This document shows positions 32,284 to 51,354 of a stretch of 64,000 bases of DNA, piece by piece. Position 1 is the stretch's first letter. Every line of letters starts with the position of its first letter. Source of the DNA: the human T2T-CHM13v2.0 reference genome, Homo sapiens. The position numbers and the translations under genes are program-made. The stretch lies in NCBI RefSeq assembly GCF_009914755.1, contig NC_060944.1; one strand, given 5' to 3'. The notes under the pieces were generated by a model. The model was given only the letters and a program-made list of their open reading frames with translations, was not told where the DNA came from and made no database searches.

Positions 32284-32325
32284 TGACTCATGCCCTGGAC
32301 CCCGCCCCATGGAAGCAAATAAAAA
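32284..32325 (+). promoter_or_regulatory. Putative DEFB117 proximal promoter: AP-1 TGACTCA (32284-32290), GC box CCCCGCCCC (32300-32308), TATA-like AAATAAAAA (32317-32325)
   Basis: Motifs seen directly; the A-rich box aligns with ccaataaaac upstream of DEFB118 exon 1. Confidence 0.55.
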
Positions 32326-32392
32326 CCTGAGTCCAGAGCCCCATTGCAGGATGTTCTCAACTCCTGGATCTGCCACATCCTTCTCAAAGACC

Positions 32393-32449
32393 ATAAAATT
32401 CTTGCTACTGGCTCTTACTGTATTTTTGGTCCTGTTCAGATGTTCCCAG
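32393..32449 (+). pseudogene. DEFB117: DEFB117 exon 1 (signal peptide), disabled
   Basis: Paralogous to DEFB118 exon 1 (ctcctggatct...gaccATAaaattcttgctactggctctt...cccag|gtaaac); ATG>ATA and 57 nt instead of 58. Confidence 0.85.
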
Positions 32450-33312
32450 GTAAACAGAACCAAGGAAGAAGGGAAAAAGAGCTAGCATGGGGAAGTGTCC
32501 ATGGAAGGCTTAATATCTTTTCCTTCATTGAGATAGGGTTTTTGGGGATGGTTGATTAGGCTTGAATTTATTAGAATGCTTTCCTCCTAGGACAAACCTA
32601 AGGCCCCATATTGGGAATGTGTATCTGGCCAGGATCCCTGGAACCATAAAATAGGGCACGGTGTCTTATGAGAAGTCCTTTTCATACTCAGCTATAACCT
32701 CAGCATCCCAAATTGCACATGGTGCTTTGCTCCAATGTCCCAGTGACCCAACTGAGGGGCTGCCTGACTTCAGCTGTCTTTCTAATCTCTACGAAATCAT
32801 GAGTCCTGAGGCCTTTCTTGGACATTAAGTTCTATTATCACTTCATATAAAGTTCCTGTACTCCTATTCTGGGATAAAAGTATCTGCAGACCAGCTATGT
32901 GGACGAAAGTACAGGCCCTTCTGCTCCTTTCCAACCATAAAAGTCTGTGATTTTTGTTAATGATTTCCAGTAAGATTTCACAAACAAATGGCCAGAGTTT
33001 TGAAACTACTGCTTATGAAGGCCTGAATAATTTTTAGACAAGGTACCATTCTCCTCTTCTGTCTGACATTTAAAACCTTTTTTCTATGCATATATAAATC
33101 CACATAAATATATATGTACCTGTACTTCTTTTTTAACCAAAAAAGGTAACTATACTTTGCTCTAAAATTTTTAAAATTCAGCAATATATTCTAGACATCT
33201 TCCTTGTCAGCACATAAAATTTTGCCTCATTGCTTCTGGAAATTACATGTTATTCCATCATATGGATAGATCCTAATTTATATACATCTAATCTCTATTG
33301 AGTGTAAAATGA

Positions 33313-38957: not shown

Positions 38958-39088
38958 TCTGCAGGAGCCAAAAATCTTGCTGGATCATAAAAGGACACTG
39001 CAGGAAAAACTGCAAACCTGGTGAACAGGTTAAAAAGCCATGTAAAAATGGTGACTATTGCTGCATTCCAAGCAACACAGATTCTTAA
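38958..39088 (+). pseudogene. DEFB117: DEFB117 exon 2: (V)[42 protein letters not shown]
   Basis: Polypyrimidine tract plus CAG acceptor (38955-38957), phase 1; C-x6-C-x3-C-x9-C-x5-CC motif; close paralogy to DEFB118 exon 2; decayed tail to 39285. Confidence 0.92.
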
Positions 39089-39964: not shown

Positions 39965-44258
<4,294 letters not shown>

Positions 44259-44265
44259 AGAACTT

Positions 44266-44697
<432 letters not shown>

Positions 44698-45219
44698 TCA
44701 GCATAATAAAAATCTAATAAGTAAACAGCAATGGAAAGTTCAGGTATATTTCTTAATGGATATGGACTGCATTTATCCCTTGACAAGAGTGGCTGGCTGT
44801 GGGCAGTGGACCAGGGACTCGCGGGACACCATGGACTACATGGACTACACCCACCTAGCTTCTCCCCTGTGATGAGTCCTTCCGCTTCAGGCCTTTTTTT
44901 TTTTTTTTTTTTTACAGCCCTTCTCCATTCCCACCACCACCACTACCGTCTCAGATATGAGATCAGGCTCTGTGAATTGGGTTAGGGGTAATCCAGATTT
45001 TCCTGCTTTTCTGTAGCAAGAGCGAAAAAAGGTGTTTCTCAAGTTCTTCAGTTTAGAAAGGGTCAGGGATCTCTGCACTTATCAGGACATGTAGAGAAAC
45101 CATTCATAAAATTAAGAACATAGATTTGTATGCTTAGAAGGAACTAGAAAAGACATTCTTTATTCTATATAGAAATCCATCCTATTTAATCACTTAGACC
45201 CTGCTTGAAAAATGAGTTA

Positions 45220-45687
<468 letters not shown>

Positions 45688-45995
45688 TCACATGGCAACC
45701 CTGCTAATTCCCATCAATTATTCTCACAGTGAAAGTTATCAATTCCAGAAGAGAAAAATCAGCAACCTCCTCTGTAAAAGAGACTTTTAGAGCCGAGTAA
45801 ACAAGAGGGAGCAAAAGTTGAAACACGATGAAAATGCAACTAAAGCAATGCAGGACCTAGGCTGACTCTGGGGGTGACATCGAGGTTCCACATCCCAAAG
45901 GCAAGTCTAAATGTTGGGGTCTTCATGGACAGCTCCCAGACCTCTGATGACCCTCATGGTGCCGTTGTCAAAGGTAACATCCCAAATTATTGTAG

Positions 45996-46178
<183 letters not shown>

Positions 46179-46726
46179 GGGAATTTTTTTTTTAATGACA
46201 TTGGGTAGCATCCCCCTTTGAGTCTTATAAATGATCTCCCTCAAACTTCTGCAGCAAGTGACTTCTTGGGCAAGTCATTTTCCCTGTTGGGCACATATGT
46301 AAGAGAGGGATTTGGCTTATAGATTGACATGTGTTCATTATCGTTTATTTCCACAAACCTTCACTGAGAGCATGCTTCGTGCCTTGGGGGCTCAAAAATG
46401 AAAGACACGTTCCCTACTCTCAGGAATTTCACAGGCTGGTGCGGGGAGACACACAGATAAGTAGACCATTCAAAAGTAGGTTTATGCTAGAGTGAGAGGG
46501 GCTGTGAAGAAGGGCTGAGCCCTAATGAGAGATCGGGGAAAGCTAGGGAAGATGTCCCAGTGTGAATCTTCCCTCTCCATTGCTCCAAACACCTCCTCAA
46601 AACCTGTGACTTGTAACCCTCTGCATGCCCTCCCAGTGCCTGGATCAAATGCTCAGCTTATGTGCCACACACTAGACTGATGTTATGCATGGATAAGCTC
46701 TTAGATATCCGGCTGGTTCTGTGCCC

Positions 46727-46833
46727 ATCCCTCTGCCCCCACTGCAGAGAGGCCAATAAAACTCTTGTTCAGACTCACACTGCACACAGTATTCTGAACT
46801 CCTGGATCTACCACCTCCTGCTTCCCAAGGACC
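46727..46833 (+). promoter_or_regulatory. DEFB118: DEFB118 proximal promoter and 5' UTR; TATA-like AATAAAA at 46755-46761; Kozak gaccATG
   Basis: Conserved with the DEFB117 upstream region and with the intronic duplicate. Confidence 0.65.
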
Positions 46834-46891
46834 ATGAAACTCCTGCTGCTGGCTCTTCCTATGCTTGTGCTCCTACCCCAAGTGATCCCAG
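46834..46891 (+). CDS. DEFB118: Beta-defensin 118 exon 1, signal peptide MKLLLLALPMLVLLPQVIP
   Basis: 58-nt coding exon, phase-1 donor CCAG|gtaatc. Confidence 0.97.
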
Positions 46892-47525
46892 GTAATCAGA
46901 GGTCAGGGAAGATACAAAAATAGAGGTATAGTGGGTTCTGGCTCATGAAAATTCCAATGTGTCACGGTACTCCCCAACATGGGCAGCTCCACAGTTCCCA
47001 CACTGGGACTATGCTCCTGGCTGGGGTAAAACCTGGGAGTAGAGCAAGTTATCCTCAATAGACAGGGGCAGTCCCACCATCCAGAGTTGTCCTTGGTTCT
47101 ATATTCCAAGTTGCCGCCTAAGAAACTAGGGGAAAGCTCGGCTCACATCTGTTCTCTTTCCAGATTGTGCCAGCTTTTGAAAATGATTCCTGCAGCCCAC
47201 TTTGCTATGTTTTCTTGGCCCTAAAAGTCCTGCTATAGCTATAATGAGGTTCTTTTTGTTTTCTAATATTCTAGAATTTGGTGAACAAGTCAGAAAACAC
47301 TGGTAGAGCTGTTACACGGAAGACAGAACTGGCTTTTCTTCTTCCTTCTACAGTGAAAATCTAAGCTTTTCATAATCACTGCTTTCTTAAGTATATCTAA
47401 AGGCATGACCAGAACTTTGAAATCACTGGTGAAGAGAGCCTGTTTCTCCTTTATGTTTTTCAAGGTGCATTTCAATGTATGATCGAACTTACATAAAAAT
47501 GAATCTAAATATTTCTGTTTTATAA

Positions 47526-47952
<427 letters not shown>

Positions 47953-48194
47953 TAAAGTTGTATAGTTCTGCTGTAGGATAAGCCATATAAAGTCATATAT
48001 AGCCATTTGAGACATTTCTTAATTTTCGAACAAGACATCAATGAATATGCTTGTACAAACATTAATATATTTACATATATGGATATGGGCTTAAATAGGA
48101 TAGATTCCTAGAGGGCAGATAACCAAGTTAAATGTAAGTCTGGTGGGGGTGGGCAAGAAAATTAAAAATATATATTTGTTCCATTAATTCCTCT

Positions 48195-48402
48195 ATTCCT
48201 CTGCCCTCATTGCAGAGAGGCCAATAACTCTTGTTCAGACTCCCACTGCACACAGCGTTCTGAACGCCTGGGTCTACCCTGGCGTTCAGGGTAGGGAAAC
48301 AGGGAAACCTCTCCTGTTTCCCAGGGACCATGAAACTCCTGCTGCTGGCTCTTCCTATGCTTGTGTTCCTACCCCAAGGGATTCTGGGTAACCAGAAGTC
48401 AG
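48195..48402 (+). other. Intronic duplicate of DEFB118 promoter plus exon 1; intact 58-nt coding part 48330-48387 (MKLLLLALPMLVFLPQGIL)
   Basis: Direct alignment to 46727-46906; gaccATG and G|gtaacc donor retained. Confidence 0.9.
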
Positions 48403-48875
48403 TAATCAGAAGTTGTGTATCTTAAAGGACACTGCCAGCAGAAATTGCCAACTCTGGGGGTTTTTAGTAATTCTTCAGTTACAATTCCAGACACAAACAG
48501 GAATAATTCTGTGTGATCACTTTGAAAGCAATTGTGTCTGCTTTGAGTGCTAGTGGAGATATTGAGACTAGGAAAGAGACAGATGTGAAAGATTTTGTAC
48601 ATGAAATCCACAAGTTATAAAAACTCAGCATATGGGAAGTGAAGGAAATATTACATGATCTGGGGTTTCAAGTCTGAGTGTTAAGAGTGATAAATTGGAG
48701 CCATCCTCTTGGAGCAAAGAGTTAAGATAATGAAAGAAGCATAAAGTCTTGATGCTTTATCTTAAAAAGCCCCTACATTTGGGGAAGAAGAATAGAAATC
48801 AGTGACATTTATAGGAACAGAGATATCTCCCTACCCTCTCACCGAAAATACACAAGGGTTTTTCTATCACCATAA

Positions 48876-49208
<333 letters not shown>

Positions 49209-49229
49209 TAATCTGCATTTCTCTCATCA

Positions 49230-49560
49230 TCCTGTGATCAAAAGTTCTGAATGGCTTTCTTTCAAAGACCTGCAAGATTCTATGTGATCTCAACTCCCAT
49301 TATATTTTCTCCAGTTACTCTCCACTTAACTTACTCTATACTCACCATAACTACCTTATTGTTTTTCAGAACCTTTGAGACAGGTCCTGCCTCTAAGCCT
49401 TTGCACTTGCTGCTTCCTCTGCCTGATATATACTCTGCCCCCAGTTAGTCTCGTAGCTCGCCCTCTCTCTTCCTTCTCAAACCTCAAGGGAAGTCTTTCA
49501 CTATTTCCCTTCTAATCACACACTTCCTAAACCCCTTCCCTGCTTCGTTTCTCTCCATAA
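49230..49560. mobile_element. L2 fragment
   Basis: cctgcctctaagcctttgcacttgctgcttcctctgcctg, an L2 motif. Confidence 0.6.
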
Positions 49561-49645
49561 TGCTTATCTTTTTTTTGTATTTTCATAATGCTTATAGTAT
49601 GTATCCCACATAAAGTATGTTTTACTTTCTTCTCTTATTATCTAC

Positions 49646-49834
49646 TTTTTTTCTTTTTCTTTTTTTTCTTTTTTGAGACAGTCTCGCTCTGTTGCCCAGG
49701 CTGAAGTGCAGTGGCACGATCTCAACTCACTGCAGCCTCCGTCTCCCAGGTTCAAGTGTTTCTCCTGTCTCAGCCTCCTGAGTAGCTGTGACAATAGGCA
49801 TGCGCCACCACGCCTGGCTAATTTTTGTATTTTT
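49646..49834 (-). mobile_element. Alu right arm plus linker
   Basis: Reverse partial Alu. Confidence 0.85.
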
Positions 49835-49866
49835 GGACATATGCTTATTTTATACTTTGGTTTATA

Positions 49867-50335
49867 ATTTTTTATTTTTTTAATTTCAATAGCTTTAGGG
49901 GTACAAGTGGATTTTGGTTACATGGATGAATTGTATAGTGGTGAAGTCTAAGATTTTAGTGCACCCATCACTGGAGTAGTGTACATTATACCCAATAGGT
50001 AGTTTTTCATCCCTCCCCCTCCTCTTACTCTTCCCCCTTCTGAGTCTCCAATGTCCATTATACCACTCTGTACGCCCTTGTGTACCCATAGCTTAGGTCC
50101 CACTTATAAGTGAGAACATGTGGTATTTGTTTTTCAATTCCTGAGTTACTTCACTTAAAATAATGGCCTCCAGTTCCATCCAAGTTGCTGCAAAAGACAT
50201 TATTTTGTTCCTTTTTATGGATGAGTAGTAATCCATGGTGTATATATACCACATTTTCTTTATTCACTCATCAGTTGATAGGCACTTAGGTTGATTCCAT
50301 ACCTTTGCAGTTGCGAATTGTGCTGCAATAAACAT
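49867..50335 (-). mobile_element. L1MA1/2- or L1PB-type 3' end
   Basis: ggggtacaagtggattttggttacatggatgaattgtatagtggtgaagtc... Confidence 0.85.
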
Positions 50336-50453
50336 ACACTACACAGATATATTTTATATACTCATGTGAATGTATACTTTGCAGTAGAATGGGATATGAC
50401 CAATGCAAATAACTTAATCACACTTGTTGAAGTAGCAACAAGATGTACTTTCT

Positions 50454-50765
<312 letters not shown>

Positions 50766-51040
50766 TTACTCACAGGGTACAGGTAGCTTCATTATAAGTG
50801 GCCCCAATTCCTCATGACTAAAGTTTCTTTTCATTGATAGTAAGATTCATCCCACTTTCAGAATAGTTAAAAATTGACAAATGGGAGGTTGAGTATTTGC
50901 CAGACCTGAGGTGGGAGTCTTGCAGCTGTCATCTAATTATGATCCACAGTGTGGATATAGGATGCGAGATATACAGTCATGCTAGTGAAATTGAGAGCAT
51001 CAGTAACCCAAAATCAATGGTCTTTCCTTTTATTATTCAG

Positions 51041-51354
51041 CCTATAGTGGTGAAAAAAAATGCTGGAACAGATCAGGGCACTGCAGGAAACAATGCAAAG
51101 ATGGAGAAGCAGTGAAAGATACATGCAAAAATCTTCGAGCTTGCTGCATTCCATCCAATGAAGACCACAGGCGAGTTCCTGCGACATCTCCCACACCCTT
51201 GAGTGACTCAACACCAGGAATTATTGATGATATTTTAACAGTAAGGTTCACGACAGACTACTTTGAAGTAAGCAGCAAGAAAGATATGGTTGAAGAGTCT
51301 GAGGCGGGAAGGGGAACTGAGACCTCTCTTCCAAATGTTCACCATAGCTCATGA
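51041..51354 (+). CDS. DEFB118: Beta-defensin 118 exon 2: (A)[44 protein letters not shown]...SLPNVHHSS*
   Basis: Acceptor ttattcag|; six-Cys motif; 58+314=372 nt gives 123 aa; acidic S/T-rich tail; NRS sequon. Confidence 0.97.

What the first reader, a model, noticed from the sequence alone, without database searches (positions are those of the whole stretch)
48195..48402. Second, ORF-intact DEFB118 promoter and signal-peptide exon inside the DEFB118 intron
Seen: about 200 bp matching 46727-46906 recur 1.5 kb downstream. The copy keeps gaccATG (48330), an unbroken 58-nt frame (MKLLLLALPMLVFLPQGIL vs MKLLLLALPMLVLLPQVIP) and a phase-1 GT donor (48388), so it would join exon 2 (51041) in frame to give a 123-aa precursor. 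Amino-acid changes cluster near the signal-cleavage end. The TATA-like box is shortened (AATAAC vs AATAAAAC) and the donor is weaker (TGG|gtaacc vs CAG|gtaatc). Inference: an alternative first exon or promoter for a sperm-coating defensin, with possibly different processing or regional expression.
Basis: partly seen in the sequence, partly recalled or inferred. Interest (0 to 1): 0.8.

Follow-up and report, generated by a model that had tools for sequence, protein, structure and literature searches.

The report
Decaying DEFB118 exon-1 duplicate in intron
A second copy of the DEFB118 promoter and signal-peptide exon lies in the gene's intron and could still splice in frame, but it mutates like unconstrained DNA and is most likely a leftover duplicate.

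Summary
Window 48195-48402 duplicates 46727-46906: 57 bp of core promoter, the 5'UTR, the 58-nt signal-peptide coding part and 15 nt of intron. 17 of 178 aligned bases differ (K2P 0.104). The whole genome holds only these two copies. ATG 48330, the open 58-nt frame and the phase-1 GT at 48388 are present. An in-silico join to exon 2 gives 123 aa that differ only by L13F, V17G and P19L.

The copy shows no sign of constraint:
- Divergence is even across promoter, UTR, coding part and intron.
- With an older paralogous relic as outgroup, 14 changes fall on the copy and 3 on the working exon.
- Coding changes are 3 replacement to 2 silent, about the neutral expectation.
- 52-59% of simulated neutral copies keep ATG, frame and GT.
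- Its derived lesions are a shortened TATA-like box, a 30-bp insert that builds two 5'UTR hairpins (-41 kcal/mol), a weaker donor, and a duplicated out-of-frame donor.

RefSeq lists one human transcript, without this exon. One public Pan gene model does carry exactly this signal peptide, so rare use cannot be excluded. Even if used, the mature peptide would be unchanged. Best reading: neutral relic (0.65); weak alternative first exon (0.25).

The parts
48195..48249 (+). Duplicated core promoter: CCAAT motif kept, TATA-like A-run shortened by 2 bp. It ends at the position homologous to the RefSeq start site 46784.
   Evidence: Alignments. The outgroup relic at 32.3 kb has the long A-run, so the 2-bp loss is derived in the copy.
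48250..48329 (+). Putative 5'UTR of the copy. It includes a derived 30-bp insertion (about 48279-48308) made largely of inverted copies of its own flanks. Two hairpins form, at 48258-48291 and 48294-48322.
   Evidence: Searches show the insertion is absent from the canonical exon and from the outgroup. One search gives hairpins of -22.6 and -18.8 kcal/mol, -41.4 together, and shows that the reverse complements of the flanks match the insert. One search gives z = -3.99 against shuffles. The canonical 5'UTR folds at -7.5 kcal/mol, z = -0.06.
48330..48387 (+). 58-nt open signal-peptide frame (19 codons plus 1 base, phase 1). It differs from canonical exon 1 at 5 bases: L13F, V17G, a silent change in I18, and P19L with two changes.
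   Evidence: All 5 changes are derived in the copy. Orthologue proteins agree.
48388..48415 (+). Donor region present as two tandem 14-bp units. The first GT (48388, TGG|GTAACC) is in phase with exon 2. The second GT (48402, TCA|GTAATC) would give phase 0, out of frame.
   Evidence: Matches to CAG|GTAAGT are 5 of 9 and 4 of 9, against 7 of 9 for the canonical donor. The duplex with the U1 5' end is -6.2 and -1.9 kcal/mol, against -8.1.
46727..46906 (+). Source or sister segment: the working DEFB118 core promoter, exon 1 (46784-46891, coding part 46834-46891) and the first 15 nt of intron 1.
   Evidence: Hub RefSeq table (NM_054112.3).
51041..51354 (+). Coding part of DEFB118 exon 2, to which either first exon would join in frame.
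   Evidence: Homologues carry Pfam PF13841.
47551..47888 (-). Alu-type insertion between the two copies, flanked by a perfect 15-bp direct repeat at 47551-47565 and 47874-47888. Before it arrived the copies were about 320 bp closer.
   Evidence: families D1, D4 and D6. The hub table lists 47559-47878 as masked repeat. The name 'Alu' is recalled, not computed.

Best explanation
This is a relic of a small local duplication. About 180 bp were copied into intron 1, 1.47 kb downstream: 57 bp of core promoter, exon 1, and 15 nt of intron. Short direct repeats sit at both junctions. Since then the copy has drifted without detectable constraint. Its short frame, ATG and GT survive because 60 nt is a small mutational target, not because selection kept them. 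Its promoter, 5'UTR and donor have each picked up a weakening lesion. Any transcripts it starts are expected to be rare and would encode the same mature defensin.

Shown here: the duplication, its limits, the uniform divergence, the excess of changes on the copy's branch, the derived lesions, and the chance of neutral survival. Inferred: that it is not meaningfully expressed in human tissues.
For: 1. The duplicated unit is only the 180-bp segment. The flanks share nothing but Alu-type repeats, and the genome holds no other copy.
2. Divergence is even: promoter 4/57, 5'UTR 6/48, coding part 5/58, intron 2/15.
3. With the paralogous relic at 32290-32465 as outgroup, 14 differences are derived in the copy, 3 in the canonical exon, and 3 are ambiguous (chi-square P 0.008, exact binomial P 0.013). 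Without three alignment-edge columns the count is 11 against 3 (P 0.057).
4. On the copy's branch the coding rate is 5/58 and the non-coding rate 7/120 (Fisher P 0.53).
5. Coding changes are 3 replacement and 2 silent, against 63% replacement expected for random changes.
6. The canonical residues L13, V17 and P19 are kept in 7 of 7 catarrhines (Hollox & Armour 2008, PMC2373304, supplementary file 1). They are also kept in 7 of the 8 database orthologues, including 3 New World monkeys.
7. In 200,000 simulated neutral copies per setting, ATG, open frame and GT all survive in 52-59% at d = 0.086-0.104. Adding indels at the local rate of 3 per 178 bp brings this to about 20%.
8. The derived lesions are the 2-bp loss in the TATA-like box, the 30-bp insert, the hairpins at -41.4 kcal/mol against -7.5 for the canonical UTR, and the weaker donor with an out-of-frame twin.
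9. RefSeq RS_2025_08 gives 1 of 1 DEFB118 transcript, without this exon (hub table).
10. No paper in the library holds both 'DEFB118' and 'alternative promoter'. Four hold 'DEFB118' and 'first exon'; by title and abstract none is about this, and I did not read their passages.
Against: - No disabling lesion exists: ATG, frame, phase and GT are all intact, and there is no upstream ATG in 48216-48329.
- The donor at 48388 is still the best GT in its neighbourhood.
- The CCAAT motif and the bases around the homologous start site are unchanged.
- The copy lies only 1.5 kb from the active promoter, so it probably shares its enhancers (inference).
- One of the 8 database orthologues, the Pan model P0001, uses exactly this signal peptide. 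I could not see what evidence that model rests on.
- All the tests rest on 17-20 differences and on an outgroup only about 76% identical.
- No expression data were available.
Confidence: 0.65

Rival explanations
1. Weak but real alternative first exon and promoter, 'exon 1b'. Transcription starts near 48250, the exon splices from 48387 to 51041, and translation gives a precursor with a variant signal peptide and the same mature DEFB118. It might be used in a different tissue or epididymal segment, or mainly in Pan.
For: - The in-frame join gives 123 aa.
- CCAAT motif, start-site context, Kozak-like context and a usable donor are kept.
- The Pan gene model P0001 carries exactly this signal peptide on Pan exon 2.
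- Chimpanzee also has an open canonical exon 1 (PMC2373304 supplementary file 1). The Pan model is therefore not a stand-in for a lost exon.
Against: - No sign of purifying selection on the copy.
- TATA-like box shortened.
- By homology a -22.6 kcal/mol hairpin starts 8-9 nt from the cap, followed by a -18.8 kcal/mol hairpin that ends 7 nt before the ATG. By recalled work on 5'UTR hairpins this should lower translation.
- Donor weaker than the canonical one.
- RefSeq has no such human transcript (hub table).
- P0001 is listed from UniRef only, not from NCBI's annotation. It may come from protein-to-genome alignment choosing the nearer look-alike exon.
Confidence: 0.25
2. Cassette pseudo-exon in transcripts from the normal promoter. 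The pyrimidine-rich tract and AG at 48215 would act as an acceptor and 48388 as the donor, inserting 172 nt between exons 1 and 2. This shifts the frame and yields a truncated protein that is not a defensin.
For: A long pyrimidine-rich tract ending in CAG precedes 48216. The 172-nt insert shifts the frame, with a stop just inside exon 2.
Against: No annotated transcript contains it (hub table). The same tract is simply part of the duplicated promoter sequence. Acceptor strength was not scored and no expression data were available.
Confidence: 0.05
3. The copy does not work as an exon but as DNA: a duplicated promoter-proximal element in the intron that binds the same factors and adjusts DEFB118 transcription, as an enhancer or a decoy.
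For: The CCAAT-containing block 48195-48227 is 91% identical to the promoter, and the copy lies 1.5 kb from the active start site.
Against: The promoter part diverges at 4/57, no more slowly than the rest. Only 57 bp of promoter were copied. No binding or chromatin data were available.
Confidence: 0.05

Closest known systems
DEFB118 exon 1 with its core promoter (NM_054112.3; window 46727-46906)
   Same: About 90% identical over 178 aligned bases. It has the same CCAAT motif, start-site context, ATG context, 58-nt phase-1 frame and GTAA donor core.
   Different: The copy has a 2-bp loss in the TATA-like box, a 30-bp hairpin-forming insert in the 5'UTR, three signal-peptide replacements, a weaker donor and a duplicated donor. 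It changes about 4 times as fast, 14 against 3. It is not in the RefSeq transcript.
Pan DEFB118 gene model P0001 (named by its source as UniRef 'Beta-defensin n=2 Tax=Pan', A0A2I3RRG8_PANTR)
   Same: Its first 20 residues equal the translation of the human intronic copy joined to exon 2.
   Different: It is an automatic model whose evidence I could not see. It is listed from UniRef only. The sequenced chimpanzee gene in PMC2373304 supplementary file 1 has the canonical signal peptide with M10V.
Exon-1 relic at window 32290-32465, probably the lost first exon of the DEFB117 pseudogene
   Same: A further paralogous copy of the same promoter and signal-exon module on the same strand. It has a TATA-like A-run and a GTAA donor.
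   Different: It is much older, 76% identical over 109 nt. It is visibly dead: ATA replaces the ATG at 32393 and a 1-nt length difference changes the phase. It shows what the intronic copy may become.
Beta-defensin loci with more than one first exon or promoter: SPAG11 with two promoters, DEFB119/DEFB120 sharing a first exon
   Same: Two-exon defensin genes in which a signal-peptide exon is combined with different partners, in the epididymis. The hub table lists 7 transcripts for DEFB119.
   Different: Those arrangements have transcript evidence and change the mature peptide. Here no transcript is known in human and the mature peptide would be identical.

Membership tests
Alternative first exon / alternative promoter of a two-exon beta-defensin gene | Donor site in the phase that joins the shared downstream exon in frame | tested here: met
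   58 nt, phase 1, GT at 48388. The join to 51041 gives 123 aa and the native stop.
Alternative first exon / alternative promoter of a two-exon beta-defensin gene | Own core promoter able to start transcription | tested here: inconclusive
   The CCAAT motif and the start-site context are kept. The TATA-like A-run has lost 2 bp. Only 57 bp of promoter were copied. No promoter assay or CAGE data were available.
Alternative first exon / alternative promoter of a two-exon beta-defensin gene | Transcripts that contain the exon | not testable with these tools
   No expression data here. RefSeq lists 1 of 1 human transcript without it (hub table). One Pan model of unknown evidence uses it.
Alternative first exon / alternative promoter of a two-exon beta-defensin gene | Sequence constraint (purifying selection) on the exon | tested here: not met
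   The coding part diverges like the flanks: 5/58 against 12/120 in total, and 5/58 against 7/120 on the copy's branch (P 0.53). Replacement to silent is 3:2, with 63% replacement expected. Branch counts are 14 for the copy and 3 for the canonical exon.
Duplicated pseudo-exon (unprocessed partial gene duplicate, neutral relic) | Derived by duplication of part of a working gene | tested here: met
Duplicated pseudo-exon (unprocessed partial gene duplicate, neutral relic) | Changes faster than the working copy, at the same rate in coding and non-coding parts | tested here: met
   The numbers are small (17-20 differences).
Duplicated pseudo-exon (unprocessed partial gene duplicate, neutral relic) | A disabling lesion: lost ATG, stop, frameshift or lost splice site | tested here: not met
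   None is present. Simulation shows this is expected for 52-59% of neutral copies by substitutions alone, or about 20% with indels. So its absence neither excludes nor supports membership.
Duplicated pseudo-exon (unprocessed partial gene duplicate, neutral relic) | No or negligible expression | not testable with these tools
   Only indirect evidence: it is absent from RefSeq (hub table).

The most novel reading that the evidence does not exclude
Exon 1b is a true second promoter and first exon of DEFB118 in African apes and humans, as the Pan gene model suggests. It would be used in testis or in one epididymal segment. Its template-switch-born, hairpin-rich 5'UTR would put the same mature sperm-coating defensin under separate transcriptional and translational control.
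Probability: 0.12. Interest if true: 0.45.

Novelty: new member of a known kind. Interest (0 to 1): 0.25.

Why it matters
The main value is for annotation. A look-alike first exon nearer to exon 2 can mislead protein-to-genome gene builders, and one Pan model already carries it. It can also mislead primer or probe design, exon-1 variant calling and the interpretation of CAGE or junction reads at DEFB118.

Biologically it is a small, clean example of how a promoter-plus-signal-exon module duplicates and then decays. The three copies in this window stand at three stages: working, intact but drifting, and dead with ATA for ATG.

If it were shown to be transcribed, DEFB118 would have a second regulatory input without any change to the mature peptide. 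That would be of modest interest for epididymal gene regulation.

Tried and rejected
- Larger duplication unit: blastn of the flanks (44000-46726, 46907-48194, 48403-51040) against each other found only Alu-type repeats. The unit is about 180 bp.
- More copies in the genome: none beyond the two. In the window the only other hit is the old relic at 32.3 kb.
- Known structured RNA in 47900-48700: two Rfam matches far below their gathering scores (20.6 against 55; 18.9 against 43). I take these as chance.
- Unspliced reading: the frame from 48330 runs only 31 aa before a stop. The other ORFs of 20 aa or more here are on the minus strand, and I have no evidence for them.
- Literature: 'DEFB118' with 'alternative promoter' gave 0 papers. 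With 'first exon' it gave 4 and with 'chimpanzee' 7; by titles and abstracts none describes this copy. With 'epididymis' and 'transcript' it gave 31 papers, 20 listed, none on isoforms by title or abstract. 'beta-defensin' with 'signal peptide exon' and 'duplication' gave 1 paper, on frogs.
- Primate genomic DNA could not be fetched with these tools. The duplication could not be dated by presence or absence in other species, and frame retention could not be tested there. The protein database shows only representatives of 90% clusters, so exon-1b models in other species would be hidden.
- SignalP, MaxEntScan, CAGE and RNA-seq were not available. Splice strength was approximated by consensus matches and by the U1 duplex energy.

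Full report
**The observation**

Reading both places and aligning them confirms the finding. Window 48195-48402 repeats 46727-46906. The repeat finder gives three ungapped blocks: 33 nt at 91%, 53 nt at 91% and 92 nt at 90%. A 2-bp gap and a 30-bp gap separate them.

Over 178 aligned bases there are 17 differences, 14 transitions and 3 transversions. That is p = 0.096 and K2P = 0.104. The match is far beyond chance, with blastn E = 3.8e-46 inside the window. A search of the whole 3.1-Gb assembly found only these two places, 2 of 2 candidates scored.

The copy has the ATG at 48330 in nearly the same context as the canonical one. It has no upstream ATG in 48216-48329, an open 58-nt frame and a GT at 48388. 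Joined in a script to exon 2 at 51041, it reads 123 aa to the native stop. It differs from the canonical precursor at L13F, V17G and P19L, plus one silent change in codon 18.

**Limits and origin of the duplicate**

The homology stops sharply at both ends. blastn of the surrounding stretches against one another finds only Alu-type repeats. So only about 180 bp were copied: 57 bp upstream of the RefSeq start site, exon 1, and 15 nt of intron.

- At the 5' edge there is a perfect 8-bp direct repeat, 48187-48194 and 48195-48202.
- At the 3' edge the donor region is present as two tandem 14-bp units, 48388-48401 and 48402-48415.
- Short repeats at both junctions fit a replication-slippage or microhomology-type local duplication. 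This is an inference.
- An Alu-type element with a perfect 15-bp target-site duplication (47551-47565 and 47874-47888) later landed between the two copies.

The copy is older than the human-Pan split, because a Pan protein model carries its translation. A K2P of 0.104, mostly on one branch, is several times the human-chimpanzee distance. This points to tens of millions of years. That estimate is an inference from recalled primate distances and could not be tested, because no primate DNA was available.

**Constraint on the copy**

Five tests were possible, and none shows constraint.

1. Divergence is even: promoter 4/57, 5'UTR 6/48, coding part 5/58, intron 2/15.
2. The window holds a third, older copy of the module at 32290-32465. 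It is 76% identical over 109 nt and serves as an outgroup.
   - In the three-way alignment, 14 differences are derived in the intronic copy, 3 in the working exon, and 3 are ambiguous.
   - Tajima's relative-rate test gives chi-square 7.12 (P 0.008); the exact binomial gives P 0.013.
   - Dropping three columns at alignment edges leaves 11 against 3 (P 0.057).
   - So the working exon is constrained and the copy is not held to the same standard.
3. On the copy's branch the coding part changed at 5/58 and the non-coding part at 7/120 (Fisher P 0.53). The coding changes are 3 replacement and 2 silent, against 63% replacement expected for random changes.
4. The canonical residues at positions 13, 17 and 19 are widely kept.
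   - They are the same in 7 of 7 catarrhines in supplementary file 1 of Hollox & Armour 2008 (PMC2373304; I read the supplement rows and the passages on DEFB118).
   - They are also the same in 7 of the 8 orthologues returned by the protein search, including 3 New World monkeys.
   - The three replacements in the copy are therefore its own.
5. Neutral survival of the frame is not unusual.
   - In 200,000 simulated neutral copies per setting, ATG, open frame and GT all survive in 52-59% at d = 0.086-0.104.
   - With indels at the local rate of 3 per 178 bp, survival is about 20%.
   - An 'ORF-intact' 58-nt exon is thus what a neutral relic of this age often looks like.

These tests rest on few sites and on a distant outgroup. 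They show no constraint; they cannot prove neutrality.

**Derived lesions**

The outgroup lacks the 30-bp insert and has the long A-run. Both indels are therefore derived in the copy.

- *TATA-like box.* The 2-bp loss shortens the element that sits about 24-29 nt before the canonical start site.
- *Insert and hairpins.*
  - The 30-bp insert consists largely of inverted copies of its own flanks. The putative 5'UTR therefore folds into two hairpins, of -22.6 and -18.8 kcal/mol.
  - The 80-nt 5'UTR folds at -41.4 kcal/mol. A 91-nt stretch folds at -42.8, z = -3.99.
  - The canonical 5'UTR folds at -7.5, z = -0.06.
  - By homology the first hairpin would begin 8-9 nt from the cap. Recalled work on 5'UTR hairpins suggests lower translation; this is an inference.
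- *Mutational origin.* Inverted copies of flanks are the signature of short template-switch mutations (Löytynoja & Goldman 2017, PMC5453318; Mönttinen & Löytynoja 2022, PMC8794818). For both papers I saw only the search listing and the start of the abstract.
- *Donor.*
  - The donor matches CAG|GTAAGT at 5 of 9 positions, against 7 of 9 for the canonical one. Its U1 duplex energy is -6.2 against -8.1 kcal/mol.
  - It is still the best GT nearby.
  - Its tandem twin at 48402 (4 of 9, -1.9 kcal/mol) would give an out-of-frame join.

**The result against my reading**

Among the 8 orthologues (8 with E <= 0.001 of 9 candidates), one does not fit. P0001, named by its source 'Beta-defensin n=2 Tax=Pan, A0A2I3RRG8_PANTR', has a first 20 residues identical to the copy's translation, followed by Pan exon 2.

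The chimpanzee also has an open canonical exon 1, with M10V (PMC2373304 supplementary file 1). The model is therefore not a replacement for a broken exon.

The record is listed from UniRef only, not from NCBI's annotation. I could not see whether it rests on RNA-seq or on protein-to-genome alignment, which may simply pick the nearer look-alike exon. This keeps the alternative-exon reading alive.

**Consequence if the exon is used**

The residues at -3 (I) and -1 (A) before the presumed cleavage site are unchanged, and only -2, -4 and -8 differ. By the -3/-1 rule the mature peptide would be identical. The cleavage position is recalled, and SignalP was not run. Any effect would therefore be regulatory.

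A different use, as a 172-nt cassette exon through the AG at 48215, would shift the frame and stop just inside exon 2. Nothing supports it.

**Comparison with known cases, and verdict**

The closest things are:
- the working exon 1 itself;
- the Pan model;
- the dead relic at 32.3 kb, with ATA for ATG at 32393, which is probably the lost first exon of the DEFB117 pseudogene;
- defensin loci with several first exons or promoters, such as SPAG11 and DEFB119/120 (recalled).

The copy meets the structural test for an alternative first exon, namely phase and donor. It fails the constraint test, and transcript evidence could not be examined. It meets two of the four tests for a neutral pseudo-exon and lacks a disabling lesion, which the simulation shows is unremarkable.

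No paper in the searched library describes it. RefSeq lists a single human transcript without it (hub table).

Most likely it is a drifting relic (0.65), possibly a weak alternative first exon (0.25). It is of low to moderate interest, mainly for annotation.

Noticed in passing
window 32290-32465 (+): A third, older copy of the promoter and signal-exon module. It is 76% identical to DEFB118 exon 1 over 109 nt and has a TATA-like A-run and a GTAA donor. ATA replaces the ATG at 32393, and the length before the donor is 57 nt rather than 58. It lies 6.5 kb upstream, on the same strand, of the annotated DEFB117 pseudo-exon, and is absent from the hub table. It is probably the dead first exon of DEFB117.
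   Followed up: partly
window 38960-39088 (+): The annotated DEFB117 pseudogene segment reads open in frame 0 as a complete six-cysteine defensin core ending in a stop. The visible defect of DEFB117 in this window is therefore in the exon-1 relic, not in exon 2.
   Followed up: partly
window 48258-48322 (+): The 30-bp insertion in the copy is built from inverted copies of both of its flanks and creates two near-perfect hairpins. This looks like one or two short template-switch mutations. There is no Rfam match above the gathering score.
   Followed up: partly
window 48187-48202 and 48388-48415 (+): Short direct repeats lie exactly at both edges of the duplicated segment: an 8-bp perfect tandem at the 5' edge and two 14-bp tandem units at the 3' edge. 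They hint at a slippage or microhomology mechanism for the duplication.
   Followed up: no
window 47551-47888: An Alu-type element on the minus strand, with a perfect 15-bp target-site duplication, inserted between the two exon-1 copies.
   Followed up: no
P0001 (Pan) against PMC2373304 supplementary file 1: Two different chimpanzee DEFB118 precursors are in public sources. One has the canonical signal peptide with M10V. The other is an automatic model with the intronic-copy signal peptide. Anyone comparing primate DEFB118 signal peptides from databases could mistake this for fast evolution.
   Followed up: partly
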